Shown here one piece after another: positions 3,997-34,552 of a DNA stretch of 64,000 nt; position 1 is the stretch's first letter, and every line of letters starts with the position of its first letter. The DNA lies in contig CALLZY010000042.1 of assembly GCA_937858715.1 (NCBI GenBank), positions 55,271 through 119,270 of the forward strand. The letters are read 5' to 3'. The notes below the pieces were generated by a model. The model saw only the letters and a program-made list of their open reading frames with translations. It was not told the DNA's origin and did no database searches. The stretch is from an uncultured Chitinophagaceae bacterium. Its GTDB lineage: Bacteria > Bacteroidota > Bacteroidia > Chitinophagales > Chitinophagaceae. A program made the position numbers and the translations under genes.

Positions 3997-4686
3997 TTAT
4001 GAAGGGGTGGGGAGTATGGTTTCGGTTTTTGATTTTGCAGATGCGGGGTCGATGATGATGCGGTTGTTTTTGTAGTTGAGATAAAATTCGGGATGGGTTG
4101 ATTTGAAGAGGAGAACCAGTTTGTCCATGCGGTAGCGCAGCAGGTTGCCTGCCTGGCGGAAGAGTGTGACGAGTGCGGTTCCCTGTGCGGACCTGTTGCT
4201 TACAGCGTTGCGGGGTTCGGGTGCTGCGGATTCGTAGGCCAGGATTGCGGTCATGAACTCGTCGAGGCGGGACTGAGAGATACCATATGCTGAAAGTGCG
4301 GGCAGGTTTTCAGTGGCGGCTGCATGAATATTGCGGCAGATGGCGGGGAGCAGCAAATCCTTCTTCCGCATTAAAGTGGTGTAAGAGAAATTTACCTTAT
4401 ACCTGAGTTCCATATTGCCGGATGCAACGGCACTGGCGAAGACGGCAGCCGCAACGGTGGTGGCGGCGGTGCTTACTGTTTTTTTCTTTTGGGTTTTATC
4501 TTCGGTGACACCGAGGATAACGAGGATTTCGGCACGGGCTGCGGCCCTGATGGCATCAACCAATGAGGTGAACTCGGCAGTTGCCTGTTGAAAAGCGGGG
4601 ACGGTGGCGATGACAGCAGTGTTTGCGGCGCAGTAAGTGCTTACTGCATTGAACATACCAAGCCTTGCTTCCTGTTTTGCATTCAT
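3997..4686 (-). CDS. Conserved Bacteroidota hypothetical protein, Ala-rich and helical
   Basis: 229-aa ORF resembling a recurrent Bacteroidota family (MN.KQE...MF.AV...; MDKLV..FK..HPEFY..YK..R.IIDP); visibly more GC-rich than its neighbours. Confidence 0.75.
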   Translation of the reverse strand: MNAKQEARLGMFNAVSTYCAANTAVIATVPAFQQATAEFTSLVDAIRAAARAEILVILGVTEDKTQKKKTVSTAATTVAAAVFASAVASGNMELRYKVNFSYTTLMRKKDLLLPAICRNIHAAATENLPALSAYGISQSRLDEFMTAILAYESAAPEPRNAVSNRSAQGTALVTLFRQAGNLLRYRMDKLVLLFKSTHPEFYLNYKNNRIIIDPASAKSKTETILPTPS

Positions 4687-4723
4687 AGTTTAAGGTTTAG
4701 AGGAGAATGTTATGATTACAGAA

Positions 4724-4772
4724 CAAATTTACCAGATGACAGAGTCTTTTGCAATACCACTTAAGTGGTATT
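4724..4772 (-). promoter_or_regulatory. Promoter (-7 TAAATTTG, -33 TTGC) with a perfect 20-bp palindromic operator
   Basis: AATACCACTTAAGTGGTATT at 4753-4772; -7 box at 4724-4731; same layout at 31983-32031. Confidence 0.7.
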
Positions 4773-4830
4773 CTTATTAGCAAGTTGTTAATGTTTTAAA
4801 GACAGAGAGACATGCTTTAGAGGCATGGGC

Positions 4831-5049
4831 GTATGCTTGACAGACAAAGTTCTTTGCTTAGCAGACAGAATCGTATGCTTAGCAGGCAAAGTCGTATGCT
4901 TGATTGACAAAGTCGTATGCTTGACAGGCAAAGTCGTATGCTTGACAGACAAAGTCGTATGCTTGACAGACAAAGTCGTATGCTTGACAGATAAAGTGGT
5001 ATGCTTAACAGACAAAATGGTATGCTTAACAGACAAAGTTGTATGCTTG
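4831..5049. repeat. 21-bp tandem repeat, 10 full copies plus 1 partial (consensus GTATGCTTGACAGACAAAGTC)
   Basis: Units start at 4831, 4852, 4873, 4894, 4915, 4936, 4957, 4978, 4999, 5020, 5041; degenerate units extend back to ~4789. Confidence 0.97.
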
Positions 5050-9489: not shown

Positions 9490-10179
9490 CTATCTGTCTA
9501 TTTTGTTTTTCAACCTTTTAACTGATTTCTCAATTTGGCTTTTTATTTGACCTTTATATCCCATTATTTTTTTTTGCAAGAAAACAAGAGTATTAGTGTT
9601 GCCAATAATTGTAAGTGCATCTGCAACCTGTAATGGATGTTTGTCAAAAATCGGCAACAACAATTCCATCGTTTTCTCCTTTTCAAAATACTTTAGTGCA
9701 GCATAAACGAGCATTTCATTTTCTTTGGGCTGTTCGTCAGCGGTTAACTTTTCTTTTAGCCATTCTGAAATATTCATAGCCCGGCCAACTGCAACTGTAT
9801 TCGCTATCGCCCACTTTAAATTCGCAGAACTTTCTTGTGATTCAAATAATCTCATTAAAACAGTTCCATCAAATGGGAATTCGGCTTTTCCTAAAGCCCT
9901 TACAAGAGTTTCTTGAGAATTATGTTTATTATCAAGTTGAATAAGCCAATTTAGAATTATATCGGTAAGCCGACTATCAACTTTATCTAATTTTAATATA
10001 TCATCAGAATCGCTAATTTTTTTATATCCCTCCTTATGTAAACTTTCAATGAAAGGCTTTTCGATATTCCTTATCTCCAAAGTCTTTTTTATGCCCTCAC
10101 TTTCTTTTATTTTCAGCATTTGCTTGTATTCGCTATTTTCTTTAAACTTGCTTAAAAACTCATCTGCTTTCATAATCAT
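9490..10179 (-). CDS. HEAT/ARM-repeat-like hypothetical protein (cassette cargo)
   Basis: Helical repeats QETLVRALGK, LKWAIANTVA, QVADALTIIGN. Confidence 0.7.
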   Translation of the reverse strand: MIMKADEFLSKFKENSEYKQMLKIKESEGIKKTLEIRNIEKPFIESLHKEGYKKISDSDDILKLDKVDSRLTDIILNWLIQLDNKHNSQETLVRALGKAEFPFDGTVLMRLFESQESSANLKWAIANTVAVGRAMNISEWLKEKLTADEQPKENEMLVYAALKYFEKEKTMELLLPIFDKHPLQVADALTIIGNTNTLVFLQKKIMGYKGQIKSQIEKSVKRLKNKIDR

Positions 10180-25531: not shown

Positions 25532-26596
25532 TCAGAAGTGAATTGCATTCAACCTGAATTTTCCGTTTGAGAATTCAAGCGACGGTGCCGGAAACTTAAA
25601 AGCGCTGAGCACTGTAAAAAGAAACCTGAGTCCTTTTTTGTTGGTTTTTATTTTTGTAAGATCAATATCAGGAGCAAGATACCATTGCCGGTAGCGCTTA
25701 ATATCTCTCCTGTCGAATATGATGTTACCGTTTTCATCTTTGGCAATATTTTCTTCACCGCCAAACATTCCTTCAGCGCCGTAGCCAATGGATATACAAA
25801 GCCAATCAGGTAAATTGCTCTTCGGAAGAAAAGATTTTATGCTGGCACTGGCCCAATACGTTTGACCATTATAGTCTTTGATGAAACGTTCAGGTGAACT
25901 CTTTCCAAATAATACATCGCTGCGCCGGTTAAGCGAGGCATCACTATATGATTTTCGGTGGAATGACCATTTTGGCCGGATGCGCTGCTCATTCCAGGCA
26001 AGCTCCTGTGCGATGTAAGTGCCACTTCCCAGAATGTTAGCCCCGAAGTCGGCCCAGCTCCAGCCCCAGTCGGCACTATGACCATCGAGAAACTCTATGA
26101 CAGTTTGATATACAGCACCACTTAAACCGCCTATCCAGATATATTTTTTTCTGTCTATTCCGGTCCATTTCCAAAGTTCCGTGCTTGCCCTGCTCTCTAT
26201 GTAGGCACCGTAAAAATGTCCAACCTTGTCAACCTGTAACCATTCTTTTGAATCGTTGAAGGAATGAAATTTTGACTTTGGAAAATCTTTGTACCATGCT
26301 TGTGACAGTCCGTAAAGAATACCGCTGTAACCAACCACATTGGCTCCGCCTACCAGCCAGGTACGTTTTTTAATTTGAAGCGGTGTAAGTGATTGTTTGA
26401 TAATAAAGGGAGAATCTATAGCAACTATGGGACTGCCGGTTATTGAAATTACGGTTGAATCGGAATGAGTACTGTCGCTTTGTGCTGAAGAAACTACAGA
26501 AGACGATAAGAAAACTATCAGTATGCCCAGCAGCGAACGGGACGATGAACGGAGCGACGCAAGGAACGATGATAGTAGCAATACAGTTGACCTCAT
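25532..26596 (-). CDS. DUF2279/YfiM-like protein
   Basis: DKVGHF, DFGANILG, KDYNGQTYW, SIGYGA. Confidence 0.8.
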   Translation of the reverse strand: MRSTVLLLSSFLASLRSSSRSLLGILIVFLSSSVVSSAQSDSTHSDSTVISITGSPIVAIDSPFIIKQSLTPLQIKKRTWLVGGANVVGYSGILYGLSQAWYKDFPKSKFHSFNDSKEWLQVDKVGHFYGAYIESRASTELWKWTGIDRKKYIWIGGLSGAVYQTVIEFLDGHSADWGWSWADFGANILGSGTYIAQELAWNEQRIRPKWSFHRKSYSDASLNRRSDVLFGKSSPERFIKDYNGQTYWASASIKSFLPKSNLPDWLCISIGYGAEGMFGGEENIAKDENGNIIFDRRDIKRYRQWYLAPDIDLTKIKTNKKGLRFLFTVLSAFKFPAPSLEFSNGKFRLNAIHF

Positions 26597-31545: not shown

Positions 31546-31953
31546 TCAGTTTTTTCTGTCCATATACCATGTTCCGCTTCCGGTAGGTGTGGCATTCGGT
31601 CCCCAGGTGCCGTTAGTCATTTTGCCATTGTTGCTCCAGTCTGCTTTAATTGAAAAAGTACTTCCGCCCGGAGTTGAATATGTATAAGTAGCAGAAAATA
31701 CATTACCGGTTAAGGTCCAAGTACCTGTTGCTTTGGATGAAGAGGTAATGTTGTCGCCATCGGCAATTGTGAGTTTTCCTCCCGATTCAATTACCATCGA
31801 GTAACCGGAATTGGGTGTGGCACTGGCGGTTCCGTATTTCCCAACCCAGAGGCCTTCGATCGGGTAAACAGGAACAGGACATTCATCTTTCTTGCAGGAA
31901 ATAAACGGCAATAATGCGAACAGCGCTACAAACGCTAAAGTTAACTTTTTCAT
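31546..31953 (-). CDS. Small hypothetical lipoprotein, beta-rich
   Basis: MKKLTLAF..FISC-KKDE lipobox. Confidence 0.8.
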   Translation of the reverse strand: MKKLTLAFVALFALLPFISCKKDECPVPVYPIEGLWVGKYGTASATPNSGYSMVIESGGKLTIADGDNITSSSKATGTWTLTGNVFSATYTYSTPGGSTFSIKADWSNNGKMTNGTWGPNATPTGSGTWYMDRKN

Positions 31954-31982
31954 TGATTTTTGTTTATGGTTAAAATAAGTGC

Positions 31983-32031
31983 CAAAAGTAAAAGACTGAA
32001 TGATAGCAGGCAATACCACTTTTGTGGTATT
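31983..32031 (-). promoter_or_regulatory. Promoter (-7 TACTTTTG, -33 TTGC) with palindromic operator AATACCAC-TTTT-GTGGTATT
   Basis: Operator at 32012-32031; same arms and spacing as 4724-4772. Confidence 0.7.
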
Positions 32032-32086
32032 TTTTCATTTGTTATACAAATAAATGATTGTATTTTCCGCTTTTAATAAGATTGCT

Positions 32087-34552
32087 ATGCGAATAGTTCC
32101 TTTTTTAGTTTCTGCTGTTGCCACTGCCGGCCTTGTATATGCTTTAAACAGACCATTGGGGTCATTACCGATGGCCGCAGGAAAATTTCTAAGTCCGCAA
32201 TATGGCTTTTGGCAGAATGCCGAACCGGCTTCAAAAAGTTTTGATGAAGAACTCAGCTTCTCCGGATTGAAAGGTAAAGCTGAAGTATATTTTGATGACA
32301 GGCTGGTGCCTCATGTTTTTGCAGAAAATGATGAAGACCTTTATTTTATCCAGGGATACCTGCATGCAAAATTCAGGTTGTTCCAGATGGATTTACAAAC
32401 AAGGGCTGCTGCTGGCCGTGCCAGTGAATTTGCCGGAGCTAAGGCAATAAATTTTGATAAAGAACAGCGCAGGCTGGGAATGGTGTTTGCTGCAGAGAAT
32501 GCCTTGAAGGAAATCGAAAAAGACCCTGTCTCGAAAGCAGCATTTGATGCATATACAAGCGGCATAAATGCTTATATAGGTTCGTTAAGAGAAGCAGATA
32601 TACCCATTGAATACAAACTGATGAATGTGAAGCCGGAAAAATGGAGCAACCTGCGTTCTGCATTGCTTTTGAAAATGATGGCTAAAATGCTTTCGTCAGG
32701 CACAGAGCATGATTTGGCCTATACAAATGCAAAAGCAGTGTTTATGCCAGAAGAACTGAACAAACTCTATCCACAGGTACCTGATTCGTTATTACCAATT
32801 GTTCCCAAAGGAACTGTGTTTGAGAAACCAGCGATAATACCTGTTCAGCCGGCTTCTGCCGACTCTTTATACTTCGGAAAAAAAGATACTGTTTCAGTAA
32901 AAGAAATATCGAGGCCTAATGAAAATAATGGCAGCAATAACTGGGTGGTGTCCGGAAGTAAAACGCAAAGCGGAGCCCCAATTCTTTGTAATGATCCGCA
33001 TCTCGAAATGTCCTTGCCTTCGATTTGGTATGAGATACAACTGCAAACGCCGGTCAGCAATGCTTATGGTGTGTCAATACCGGGGGCACCTTTTATCATC
33101 ATTGGTTTTAACGACAGCATTGCCTGGGGTGTTACCAATTCGCAGCGGGATGTAAAGGATTATTATGAAATAAGATTTAAAGACAAGACCAGAAAAGAAT
33201 ACTGGTTTAACAATCAGTGGACAGCAGCAAGGTTGCAGGTGGAAGAGATAAAAGTTAAAGGAGGTGCCGTTGTTTTCGATACTGTGGCTTACACCGTTTA
33301 CGGACCGGTGATGTATGACGAAAGCTTCCAGGGAACGGACAGTTCGGGCAGGGGAAGAAATCTTGCACTCCGCTGGACAGCCCACGACCCGAGCAATGAA
33401 GGGTTTACATTTTACAAACTAAACAGGGCAAAGAACTATGATGATTATGTAAATGCAATCGCCACATTCCAATGCCCCGGGCAAAATTTTGTTTTTGCTT
33501 CTAAAAACGGAGATATTGCCCTGTGGCAGCAGGGAAAATTTCCGGCAAGATGGAAAGGGCAGGGGTTGTATGTAATGCCGGGTGAAGACAGCAGTTATAT
33601 GTGGCAGGGTTTTATTCCTCAACCTGAAAACCCACATGCCAAAAATCCGGAACGGGGTTATTTGCAAAGCGGAAACCAGCGGCCTGCAGATTCAGCCTAT
33701 CCGTACTTTATTCCGGGAACATACCTGACAGCAAGGGCTATTACTATTGATAACAAACTGGCTGCAATGACCAGCATCACACCGGCTGACATGATGAAAC
33801 TGCAAAACGATTACTTTAATACGACGGCGGAAGATGTAAGGCCTTTGTTGATGAGGTACGTTCAAATGGATGAACTCAATGCAACAGACAAGAAATATCT
33901 TGATCTTATTAAGAAATGGGATCTTAATGCTTCAGCAGATTCAAAAGAACAAACAATCTATAATCATTGGTGGGGAATGGTAACTTATGGTATCTGGTAT
34001 TATTATGCCAACGGGCTTGATTCGTTAACCAGGGCAAAAATGGTAAAACCAACTGATCAAACAATACTGGAGATGATTATTAAAGATTCCTCTTGTCTTA
34101 ATGTGAAACTAAAAGGCAAGACGGTTAAATGGAACATTGTTACTTCGAGCTTAAAAGTTACTTCTGGTTTTTTTGAATTGAGGTTAAAAAAGGGAAACGG
34201 ACTTGAATGGTATAAGACTAATCACCCTGCCATCTATCATATTGCAGACGCTTCGAGAAACAGCCTGCTGCCTTTTGCGAGAACCAAACTTCATATCGGC
34301 GGAAACAATGACATCATCAATGCTGTAAAGGGCAGCCATGGCCCAAGCTGGCGGATGATTGTGCACATGACAACACCGACCGAGGCTTATGCAGTTTATC
34401 CTGGTGGACAAAGCGGTAATCCAGGCAGTAAGTTCTACGACAGTTTTGTAGATAAATGGGTCGAAGGCCAATATAACAAGCTTTGGTTTATGCGTGAAGG
34501 AGACAAAACAGATAAGAATGTGAAATGGGTAATGAAATTTAAAAAGGGATAA
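32087..34552 (+). CDS. Penicillin acylase (Ntn hydrolase, S45) family protein
   Basis: GSNNWVVSG..NDPHL, GQSGNPGSKFYD. Confidence 0.93.
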   Translation: MRIVPFLVSAVATAGLVYALNRPLGSLPMAAGKFLSPQYGFWQNAEPASKSFDEELSFSGLKGKAEVYFDDRLVPHVFAENDEDLYFIQGYLHAKFRLFQMDLQTRAAAGRASEFAGAKAINFDKEQRRLGMVFAAENALKEIEKDPVSKAAFDAYTSGINAYIGSLREADIPIEYKLMNVKPEKWSNLRSALLLKMMAKMLSSGTEHDLAYTNAKAVFMPEELNKLYPQVPDSLLPIVPKGTVFEKPAIIPVQPASADSLYFGKKDTVSVKEISRPNENNGSNNWVVSGSKTQSGAPILCNDPHLEMSLPSIWYEIQLQTPVSNAYGVSIPGAPFIIIGFNDSIAWGVTNSQRDVKDYYEIRFKDKTRKEYWFNNQWTAARLQVEEIKVKGGAVVFDTVAYTVYGPVMYDESFQGTDSSGRGRNLALRWTAHDPSNEGFTFYKLNRAKNYDDYVNAIATFQCPGQNFVFASKNGDIALWQQGKFPARWKGQGLYVMPGEDSSYMWQGFIPQPENPHAKNPERGYLQSGNQRPADSAYPYFIPGTYLTARAITIDNKLAAMTSITPADMMKLQNDYFNTTAEDVRPLLMRYVQMDELNATDKKYLDLIKKWDLNASADSKEQTIYNHWWGMVTYGIWYYYANGLDSLTRAKMVKPTDQTILEMIIKDSSCLNVKLKGKTVKWNIVTSSLKVTSGFFELRLKKGNGLEWYKTNHPAIYHIADASRNSLLPFARTKLHIGGNNDIINAVKGSHGPSWRMIVHMTTPTEAYAVYPGGQSGNPGSKFYDSFVDKWVEGQYNKLWFMREGDKTDKNVKWVMKFKKG

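What the first reader, a model, noticed from the sequence alone, without database searches (positions are those of the whole stretch)
4724..4772. Same operator and promoter geometry upstream of two genes 27 kb apart (site 1)
The perfect palindrome AATACCAC-TTAA-GTGGTATT lies immediately upstream of a TTGC -33 box and 19 nt spacer to a TAAATTTG -7 box for the 229-aa gene. An equivalent site at 31983-32031 has the same arms and identical spacing (20 nt between equivalent bases). The chance recurrence of 16 arm bases plus spacing seems unlikely. Inference: an activator site, perhaps of a dimeric LuxR/NarL-type response regulator, which puts this accessory gene in a host regulon.
Basis: partly seen in the sequence, partly recalled or inferred. 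Interest (0 to 1): 0.62.

Follow-up and report, generated by a model that had tools for sequence, protein, structure and literature searches.

The report
Response-regulator box on Chitinophagaceae promoters
The repeated 20-bp palindrome is a real, family-wide protein-binding box placed at a fixed distance from promoters. It most likely lets a NarL-type two-component regulator switch on a small set of genes and two undescribed small RNAs, so it is a solid but fairly ordinary regulon prediction.

Summary
AATACCAC-N4-GTGGTATT lies at window 4753-4772 and 32012-32031. On the minus strand each copy runs into a TTGC and sits 22 nt before a TAnnTTTG -7 box and a start codon.

It is far beyond chance. 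The 4.4-Mb genome holds 4 perfect copies where 0.02 are expected, and all four have the -7 box at exactly 22 nt.

The same box lies just after the stop codon of an orphan NarL/FixJ-type response regulator (RR) gene. I found it there in 20 of 22 fetched Chitinophagaceae orthologue loci and in 25 genomes of a separate 200-genome family sample. There it drives a conserved non-coding transcript of about 80-150 nt that ends in a terminator. The arms never vary, the four central bases vary, and the rare arm changes are not compensatory, so this is a DNA site and not a hairpin.

The box reads as a NarL-style 7-2-7 site (TACCACT-TA-AGTGGTA). Its predicted centre is about -43.5, where NarL activates napF and yeaR.

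Best reading (about 0.6): a dimer of that RR binds the box and activates these promoters. The window's 229-aa helical protein and 135-aa lipoprotein are regulon members. The scan has noted similar NarL-type operator regulons in other genomes.

The parts
4753..4772 (.). Box copy 1: a perfect 20-bp palindrome (8-bp arms, central TTAA). It reads as a 7-2-7 site, TACCACT-TA-AGTGGTA.
   Evidence: 7-2-7 comparison
4751..4754 (-). TTGC -33-like element; it overlaps the last two bases of the palindrome.
   Evidence: read directly
4724..4731 (-). -7 box TAAATTTG, 22 nt downstream of the 18-mer. The predicted transcription start is near 4719 on the minus strand.
   Evidence: the -7 box spans -12 to -5 in PMC9723704; the start itself is not mapped
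3997..4686 (-). Regulated gene 1: a 229-aa all-helical protein of a rare family. It has no Pfam match above the curated cut-off and no fold match in the PDB.
32012..32031 (.). Box copy 2: same arms, central TTTT.
32010..32013 (-). TTGC -33-like element of copy 2.
31983..31990 (-). -7 box TACTTTTG, 22 nt downstream of the 18-mer. The predicted start is near 31978 on the minus strand.
31546..31953 (-). Regulated gene 2: a 135-aa lipoprotein-like protein (signal peptide followed by Cys); no family assignment.
32054..34552 (+). Divergent penicillin-amidase-family gene. The box lies 22 nt before its first ATG, or 55 nt before the ATG at 32087 that opens a signal-peptide-like start. No -7 box stands in the activating register on this strand, so any effect on this gene is unknown.
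4830..5049 (.). 21-bp minisatellite (10.5 copies), 58 nt upstream of box copy 1. It is probably not part of the operator.

Best explanation
The palindrome is the DNA-binding site of a dimeric NarL/FixJ-family response regulator (RR). The most likely candidate is the orphan RR encoded on contig C5 of this genome (214 aa, REC plus GerE-type helix-turn-helix). Its gene is followed directly by the best-conserved copy of the box.

The box sits at a fixed position on Bacteroidota sigma-A promoters. The 18-mer ends 22 nt before the TAnnTTTG -7 box, which predicts that it spans about -52 to -35 with its centre at about -43.5. From there the phosphorylated dimer would contact RNA polymerase and activate transcription, in the class-II manner that NarL uses at napF and yeaR.

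In this genome the strict regulon comprises:
- the two window genes (a 229-aa helical protein and a 135-aa lipoprotein);
- two paralogues of the 229-aa gene (C45, C265);
- a 29-aa small ORF (C252);
- two small non-coding RNAs: sRNA1 directly downstream of the RR gene, and sRNA2 on C128, where the box lies one helical turn further upstream.

Shown here: the site, its over-representation, its fixed register, its conservation pattern, its linkage to the RR gene, and its 7-2-7 form. Inferred: that this RR binds it, that binding activates, and where transcription starts.
For: Statistics in this genome:
- Four perfect sites against 0.02 expected, with a reversed control of 0.
- All four have the -7 box at offset 22.
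- The relaxed core ATACC-N8-GGTAT occurs 28 times, against 1-5 for five control palindromes. Of its oriented hits, 18 have a -7 box at offset 21-22 and at most 2 at any other offset; the controls have none.
- The downstream genes are mostly unrelated to each other, so the sites did not spread by gene duplication.

Conservation:
- In 20 of 22 Chitinophagaceae RR-orthologue loci (64-74% identity, plus the genome's own locus) the box lies 15-80 nt after the RR stop codon.
- The arms are invariant and the central 4 nt vary.
- The four deviating copies change one arm only.
- The box-to-(-7) spacing is 22 nt in 19 of 20 copies, and TTG at -33 is present in only 9 of 20.

Family sample of 200 genomes:
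- 65 perfect sites in 44 genomes, against 3 control hits.
- RR orthologues in 67 genomes, plus 2 divergent ones at 54% identity that also carry the adjacent box.
- The box lies within about 120 nt of the RR stop codon in 25 genomes.
- Perfect sites not adjacent to the RR gene number 31 in 69 RR-positive genomes and 9 in 131 RR-negative genomes.
- Of 20 non-adjacent sites taken from 8 other genomes, 12 have a -7 box at offset 21-23 or 32-33, where about 2 are expected.

Genus sample of 41 genomes: 12 have both RR and motif, 2 have the RR only, 1 has the motif only and 26 have neither.

Architecture:
- TACCACT-TA-AGTGGTA differs from the engineered NarL 7-2-7 site TACCCCT-AA-AGGGGTA at one position per heptamer.
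- NarL 7-2-7 sites at napF and yeaR lie at -40 to -49 and -38 to -47 (PMC4549865).
- The -7 box spans -12 to -5 in a flavobacterial transcription-start map (PMC9723704).
- The RR aligns end to end with VraR, NarL and DevR, and the aligned receiver motif around the acceptor Asp (VLMD) matches VraR's LILMD. By my own reading of the sequence, the other receiver residues (DD pair, Thr, Lys) are present too.
Against:
- The genome encodes about 22 GerE-domain proteins, any of which might read a TACC-type 7-2-7 site.
- RR-sRNA adjacency may partly reflect frozen synteny, because the convergent M1 peptidase gene is conserved at the locus too.
- 9 of 131 RR-negative genomes still hold one perfect site.
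- 34 RR-positive genomes in the family sample lack a perfect site, though 1-mismatch sites were not counted.
- One genus member (G016) keeps the RR but has lost the adjacent module and has no perfect site.
- Position 5 of the heptamer (A) does not fit the E. coli NarL consensus as I recall it.
- In the window's own promoters the box overlaps a good TTG, which would also suit repression by occlusion.
- No cognate kinase is encoded next to the RR; its upstream neighbour looks like the 16S rRNA methyltransferase rsmG, judged from its sequence only, with no family search.
Confidence: 0.6

Rival explanations
1. The box is a real operator and defines the same regulon, but a different transcription factor reads it. 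This could be another of the roughly 20 GerE-type regulators or a regulator of another family. Under this reading the neighbouring RR gene is only a syntenic bystander of the sRNA1 gene.
For: The genome holds 22 GerE-domain hits. A second NarL-type RR on C225, in an operon with a Reg_prop/Y_Y_Y/HisKA_3 kinase, lies near related ATAC-N10-GTAT palindromes. Nine RR-negative genomes carry one perfect site each, and G016 has the RR without any site. The whole rsmG-like/RR/sRNA1/M1-peptidase block is syntenic, so adjacency is weaker evidence than it looks.
Against: Adjacency survives down to 54% RR identity. Non-adjacent sites are about 6.5 times more frequent per genome in RR-positive genomes. The 7-2-7 TACC form fits the NarL family specifically. 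Apart from the C225 RR, which lies near a related ATACCC-type palindrome, no other GerE-domain gene in this genome has such a site within 3 kb.
Confidence: 0.2
2. The box is a repressor operator. The bound dimer covers the -33 region and keeps sigma-A off the promoter until a signal releases it.
For: In the window's two promoters, and in 9 of 20 RR-linked ones, the box overlaps a TTG at -33. NarL also represses at some promoters, for example through the frdA 7-2-7 site (PMC4549865).
Against: 11 of 20 RR-linked promoters have no TTG to occlude. The spacing is rigid to within 1 nt, and a second class sits 10-11 nt further upstream, at 32-33 nt, on the same helix face. That pattern is typical of activators; repressor operators usually tolerate variable positions over the core promoter or the start site. 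No box overlaps a -7 box or a predicted start.
Confidence: 0.12
3. The palindrome acts as a nucleic-acid structure (a terminator or RNA hairpin of the upstream gene), or it is a small dispersed repeat, and is not a protein-binding site.
For: It can form an 8-bp stem with a 4-nt loop. An A-tract precedes it, so on the opposite strand it is followed by a T-run. At the RR locus it lies just after a stop codon.
Against: In the RR gene's direction no T-run follows it. The stem has only 3 G-C pairs. The arm sequences are invariant across genera rather than covarying, and the four deviant copies break pairing without compensation. No similarity extends into the flanks. The fixed 22-nt register to the -7 box has no explanation under this reading.
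Confidence: 0.03

Closest known systems
NarL/NarP 7-2-7 sites of Escherichia coli at class-II-like positions (napF, yeaR)
   Same: Both are inverted heptamers separated by 2 bp that start with TACC. They are read by a REC plus GerE-type response regulator dimer. The centre lies about 42-45 bp upstream of the transcription start, overlapping the -35/-33 region (PMC4549865).
   Different: The heptamer is TACCAC(T), not TACCCCT or the TACYYMT consensus. The host is Bacteroidota, with a sigma-A -33/-7 promoter. The RR is an orphan with no adjacent kinase and scores far below the NarL equivalog cut-off (134 against 250 bits). There is no link to nitrate respiration genes. The targets are unknown secreted or helical proteins and small RNAs.
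GacA/UvrY-type response regulators and the upstream activating sequence of rsmX/Y/Z and csrB/C small-RNA genes
   Same: A NarL-family RR whose best-conserved target is a small non-coding RNA gene preceded by a palindromic box.
   Different: The box sequence differs (TGTAAG-N6-CTTACA, recalled from memory) and so does its position (further upstream in Gac systems). sRNA1 shows no obvious array of repeated GGA motifs by eye. Here the sRNA gene is physically adjacent to the RR gene, and protein-coding genes belong to the regulon as well.
lux box / LuxR at the luxI promoter of Vibrio fischeri
   Same: A 20-bp palindrome overlapping the -35 region, centred near -42.5 (recalled from memory), read by a GerE-type HTH dimer acting as a class-II-type activator.
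   Different: LuxR has an autoinducer-binding N-terminal domain. The protein here has a phospho-receiver domain. The box sequences are unrelated.

Membership tests
NarL/FixJ-family response-regulator binding site (7-2-7 type) | Two inverted heptamers separated by 2 bp | tested here: met
   TACCACT-TA-AGTGGTA (site 1) and TACCACT-TT-TGTGGTA (site 2), compared with TACCCCT-AA-AGGGGTA in PMC4549865.
NarL/FixJ-family response-regulator binding site (7-2-7 type) | Heptamer matches the E. coli NarL consensus TACYYMT (consensus recalled from memory) | tested here: inconclusive
   Six of seven positions fit; position 5 is A rather than a pyrimidine. The relaxed ATACCC...GGGTAT class in this genome fits better. 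A non-enterobacterial paralogue need not share the consensus.
NarL/FixJ-family response-regulator binding site (7-2-7 type) | A REC plus GerE-HTH regulator is encoded in the genome and genetically linked to the site | tested here: met
   The RR is at L007:9934-10578 (minus). The box follows its stop codon in 20 of 22 fetched orthologue loci, and in 25 genomes of a separate 200-genome family sample.
NarL/FixJ-family response-regulator binding site (7-2-7 type) | Direct, phosphorylation-dependent binding of the regulator to the site | not testable with these tools
   Needs EMSA, footprinting or DAP-seq.
Class-II-type activator site | Site centred about -41 to -45, at fixed helical phase relative to the core promoter | tested here: inconclusive
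   The register to the -7 box is fixed at 22 nt (21 in a few copies; 32-33 in a second class). The centre of -43.5 follows only if the -7 box spans -12 to -5 as in PMC9723704. Transcription starts here are not mapped (tool unavailable).
Bacteroidota sigma-A promoter | TAnnTTTG -7 box, with a TTG near -33 | tested here: met
   TAAATTTG and TACTTTTG, with TTG 20 nt upstream, followed by ATG 29-37 nt after the box.
GacA-Rsm / UvrY-Csr system | TGTAAG-N6-CTTACA box, and an sRNA made of repeated GGA motifs that sequesters CsrA/RsmA | tested here: not met
   The box sequence differs. sRNA1's conserved cores are CCATTAACCTTAAACC and GGGCCTTGATCAAA, with no GGA array visible. The presence of CsrA was not examined.
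Intrinsic terminator | G+C-rich stem followed by a T-run in the direction of transcription, with the stem conserved by covariation | tested here: not met
   No T-run follows in the RR gene's direction. There are only 3 G-C pairs. The arms are invariant and the changes seen are non-compensatory.
Rfam RNA families (for the linked small RNAs) | Match to a curated covariance model | tested here: not met
   Nothing reached any family's gathering score at E<=1 over 14 loci; the only hit was a chance-level Thr_leader match (26 against 55 bits).

The most novel reading that the evidence does not exclude
The orphan NarL-type regulator and its adjacent small RNA form a Chitinophagaceae counterpart of the Gac/Rsm circuit. 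The RR would switch on sRNA1 and sRNA2, whose conserved C/A-rich core (CCATTAACCTTAAACC) mimics the TTAACC/TAAACC leader shared by the regulon's mRNAs. The sRNAs would then titrate an unknown RNA-binding factor, or the ribosome, which also acts on those leaders. That would add a post-transcriptional layer in a phylum that lacks Shine-Dalgarno-led initiation and mostly lacks Hfq and CsrA.
Probability: 0.12. Interest if true: 0.7.

Novelty: new member of a known kind. Interest (0 to 1): 0.42.

Why it matters
Almost nothing is known about transcription factors, regulons or small RNAs in Chitinophagaceae, which are abundant in soil, freshwater and activated sludge.

This finding gives a concrete, testable regulatory module. 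It consists of one orphan NarL-type regulator, a sharply defined 7-2-7 box with a fixed promoter register, two undescribed small RNAs, and a handful of secreted or helical proteins of unknown function.

The module is found in at least 39 of 151 sampled genera of the family, and some of its relatives carry named species labels (Terrimonas) and may be culturable. It also provides a clear example of class-II-like activator geometry on the unusual -33/-7 promoters of Bacteroidota.

As a type of discovery it is ordinary: a regulon predicted from a shared operator.

Tried and rejected
2. Rfam search of 14 loci: nothing reached any family's gathering score.
3. RNAalifold on the sRNA1 alignment gave no consensus structure, because MAFFT misaligned the variable terminators. 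The terminators were instead found locus by locus, in 25 of 26 loci. The box1/box2 pairing in the single-sequence fold is not conserved, and I dropped it.
4. sRNA target search by 11-mer complementarity: only chance-level hits; abandoned.
5. Function of the 229-aa protein. Pfam and NCBIfam gave nothing above their cut-offs. The AlphaFold model (pLDDT 83) is an elongated helical bundle, and no PDB fold match reached E<=0.001. Function remains unknown.
6. Idea that the 21-bp minisatellite upstream of site 1 is an array of RR half-sites, since its unit contains ATACGAC. I rejected this as the main reading. The same minisatellite occurs at C140, C187 and the end of C24, and the C140 and C187 arrays have no palindrome nearby. 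Most units there read AAACGAC.
7. Site conservation upstream of distant homologues (45-47% identity) of the 229-aa gene: absent (L106-L109). Only the 60% orthologue L105 keeps it.
8. Literature searches for a described Chitinophagaceae or Flavobacterium NarL-type box or sRNA found nothing relevant.

Full report
**1. The observation**

- Copy 1: AATACCACTTAAGTGGTATT at 4753-4772.
- Copy 2: AATACCACTTTTGTGGTATT at 32012-32031.

On the minus strand each copy runs into TTGC. Each is followed, 22 nt after the 18-mer core, by a Bacteroidota-type -7 box: TAAATTTG at 4724-4731 and TACTTTTG at 31983-31990. An ATG follows 37 and 29 nt after the box. These ATGs open a 229-aa ORF (3997-4686) and a 135-aa lipoprotein-like ORF (31546-31953). 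The intervening 20 nt share only 6 of 20 bases, so the resemblance is limited to the box and its register and is not a duplication.

**2. More than chance**

The window lies on contig C42 of a 4.42-Mb, 282-contig assembly.
- Base composition predicts 0.02 perfect ATACCAC-N4-GTGGTAT sites. The genome has four (C5:89819, C42:60024, C42:87283, C45:874), and the reversed-pattern control has none.
- All four have a TAnnTTTG box at exactly 22 nt. A 1-mismatch copy (C265:4561) and a 2-mismatch copy (C252:5761) have it at 21 and 22 nt.
- Among all hits with up to 3 mismatches, a -7-like box occurs 13 times at offset 22, against about 3.5 at other offsets.
- The relaxed core ATACC-N8-GGTAT occurs 28 times, against 1-5 for five control palindromes. 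Eighteen of its oriented hits have the box at 21-22 nt, and no other offset exceeds 2.
- The downstream genes are mostly unrelated to each other. The exceptions are the 229-aa gene and its paralogue on C265 (49% identity), plus a distant one on C45.

**3. What sits at the other copies**

The C5 copy has no ORF behind it. It lies about 95 nt after the stop codon of a 214-aa response regulator with a receiver domain and a GerE/LuxR-type HTH.
- The RR's best NCBIfam hits are MadR and NarL, far below their equivalog cut-offs.
- It aligns end to end with VraR, NarL and DevR structures, and the aligned receiver motif around the acceptor Asp matches VraR's. By my own reading, the other receiver residues are present too.
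- After the -7 box comes about 115 nt of non-coding sequence ending in a strong hairpin plus T-run. A convergent M1 peptidase gene follows.
- The RR's upstream neighbour looks like rsmG (judged from its sequence only), so the RR has no adjacent kinase.

**4. Conservation**

The closest RR orthologues in public genomes (64-74% identity) are Chitinophagaceae MAGs, Terrimonas ferruginea and Terrimonas sp. R1.
- In 20 of 22 of these loci the box (0-2 mismatches) lies 15-80 nt after the RR stop codon.
- Aligned, the copies show an A-tract, invariant arms and a variable central tetranucleotide.
- The spacing to a TAnnTTTG-like box is 22 nt in 19 of 20 copies.
- TTG at -33 is present in only 9 of 20.
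- The four deviating copies change one arm without compensation.

This is the signature of a sequence-specific dimeric DNA-binding protein, not of a hairpin.

Behind the promoter, 25 of 26 loci have a terminator 81-148 nt downstream whose stem sequence differs from genome to genome. Two internal cores are conserved: CCATTAACCTTAAACC and GGGCCTTGATCAAA. No ORF is conserved and Rfam has no match. I call this transcript sRNA1.

A second conserved terminator-ended RNA, sRNA2, has the core ATAGCTACTAATCAGAGCCTTAACC. It carries the box 32-33 nt before its -7 box, one helical turn further upstream. I found it in several relatives and, with a 2-mismatch box, at C128 of this genome.

The C252 copy drives a 29-aa small ORF followed by a terminator.

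**5. Phyletic pattern**

Genus-plus-order sample of 41 genomes: 12 have both an RR orthologue (at least 71% identity) and a perfect box.
- Two have the RR only. One of them carries a 1-mismatch box plus sRNA1; the other has lost the module.
- One incomplete genome has a box only.
- 26 have neither, including all 16 genomes from other families.

Sample of 200 genomes from 151 genera of the family:
- 65 perfect boxes in 44 genomes, against 3 control hits.
- RR orthologues in 67 genomes. Two further genomes have a 54%-identical RR that also has the box right after its stop codon.
- A perfect box lies within about 120 nt of the RR stop codon in 25 genomes.
- Boxes elsewhere in the genome number 31 in 69 RR-positive genomes and 9 in 131 RR-negative genomes.

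Of 20 such non-adjacent boxes fetched from eight other genomes, 12 have a -7 box at 21-23 or 32-33 nt, where about 2 are expected. Most precede ORFs with signal-peptide-like starts, or sRNA2. One of them precedes a likely orthologue of a gene that in this genome carries a relaxed box (ATACCC...). The relaxed class may therefore belong to the same regulon.

These counts are confounded by relatedness and by the conserved synteny of the RR/sRNA1/peptidase block. I treat them as support, not proof.

**6. Mechanism**

The 16-bp core reads TACCACT-TA-AGTGGTA. This is a 7-2-7 inverted repeat, the preferred arrangement for NarL. It differs from the engineered NarL site TACCCCT-AA-AGGGGTA at one position per heptamer (PMC4549865).

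In a flavobacterial transcription-start map the sigma-A -7 box spans -12 to -5 (PMC9723704). Applied here, the 18-mer spans -52 to -35 and is centred at -43.5. NarL 7-2-7 sites that activate napF and yeaR lie at -40 to -49 and -38 to -47.

Four features fit activation by contact with RNA polymerase better than repression:
- the fixed register;
- the second class displaced by one helical turn;
- the frequent absence of a -33 element;
- the upstream position, clear of the -7 box and the start.

I therefore propose that the phosphorylated C5-type RR binds as a dimer and activates these promoters (confidence about 0.6). Other possibilities are that a different regulator reads the box (0.2), that the box is a repressor operator (0.12), or that it is structural or a chance feature (0.03). 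A second NarL-type RR on C225 is co-transcribed with a Reg_prop/Y_Y_Y/HisKA_3 kinase and lies near related ATAC-N10-GTAT palindromes. It may own part of the relaxed class.

**7. The window's two target genes**

The 229-aa protein belongs to a rare family: 14 clusters among 5.8 billion proteins. Some members carry a C-terminal CarboxypepD_reg domain. The AlphaFold model (pLDDT 83) is an elongated all-helical bundle with no significant PDB match.

A 60%-identical orthologue from another metagenome keeps the perfect box, the register and the upstream 21-bp repeats (L105). More distant homologues do not keep them.

The lipoprotein has no family. The signal the regulon responds to, and its physiological role, remain unknown. 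The wider set is rich in secreted proteins: WG and MORN repeats, a DUF4344 putative metallopeptidase, and DUF5650 repeats.

**8. Comparison and novelty**

In how it would work, this resembles NarL at class-II-like promoters, and in circuit logic it resembles GacA driving Rsm sRNAs. It is not a member of the NarL, GacA or LuxR equivalogs. The protein scores are far below their cut-offs, the box sequences differ, and the N-terminal domain is a receiver, not an autoinducer-binding domain.

Literature searches found no description of this box, this regulator or these sRNAs. Earlier notes of this scan describe comparable NarL-type operator regulons in other genomes, so the kind of finding is not new to the scan.

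I rate it a new member of a known kind, of moderate interest.

Noticed in passing
G000 contig C5, locus L007:9671-9860 (minus); outside the window: sRNA1: a non-coding transcript of about 115 nt directly downstream of the orphan NarL-type RR gene. It has the box, a -7 box, conserved cores CCATTAACCTTAAACC and GGGCCTTGATCAAA, and a terminator. It is conserved in 25 of 26 examined Chitinophagaceae loci and has no Rfam family.
   Followed up: partly
G000 contig C128, about 9573-9745 (+); outside the window: sRNA2: a second terminator-ended small RNA (core ATAGCTACTAATCAGAGCCTTAACC). A 2-mismatch box lies 32 nt before its -7 box, and the stop codon of the upstream gene falls inside the box spacer. 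The same arrangement, with perfect boxes, occurs in relatives (L011, L017, L018, L021, L161, L167).
   Followed up: partly
G000 contig C252, locus L006:5615-5778 (minus): A 2-mismatch box at the standard 22-nt register drives a 29-aa small ORF (MKLLSGSLRNF...) followed by a terminator. It could be a small protein or a dual-function RNA.
   Followed up: no
window 4830-5049; also G000 C140:5322-5552, C187:55-97 and the end of C24 (about 25600-25703): A 21-bp minisatellite (10.5 copies in the window) is a dispersed family. It recurs upstream of members of the 229-aa gene family: the window, the orthologue L105, and a truncated paralogue at the end of C24. The C140 and C187 copies have no box nearby. 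One contig ends inside it (C24) and another begins about 55 bp from it (C187), so it probably breaks the assembly.
   Followed up: partly
5' leaders of box-bearing genes, e.g. window 4687-4719 and 31954-31978 (minus); sRNA1: TTAACC or TAAACC motifs occur in the short leaders of 5 of 6 strict-regulon mRNAs and in sRNA1. By contrast, only about 5% of crude gene starts genome-wide have them. In other genomes only about a third of box-bearing leaders show the motif. Unexplained.
   Followed up: partly
Genus loci L010, L013, L023, L118 and others, between the RR stop codon and the box: A tandem direct repeat TTTTTGC(G/A)GG-TTTTTGC(G/A)GG with a 10-bp period is conserved right after the RR stop codon, roughly 20-35 nt upstream of the box. 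It could be phased T-tracts (bent DNA or a UP-like element) or another binding site.
   Followed up: no
G000 contig C225:7620-16284: A second NarL-type RR (C225:9473-10096, minus) is co-transcribed with a Reg_prop/Y_Y_Y/HisKA_3 sensor kinase, behind the palindrome ATACGACGAACTGCGTAT. It lies 1.2 kb from a bidirectional ATACCCGGAACAGGGTAT site. A relaxed box class (ATACC-N8-GGTAT, 18 oriented hits in register at about 17 sites) precedes many secreted proteins of unknown function.
   Followed up: partly
window 32054-32120 (+): The penicillin-amidase-family ORF has two candidate starts. The ATG at 32087 opens a signal-peptide-like sequence (MRIVPFLVSAV...), whereas the ATG at 32054 lies only 22 nt from the box. 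The true start is probably 32087.
   Followed up: no
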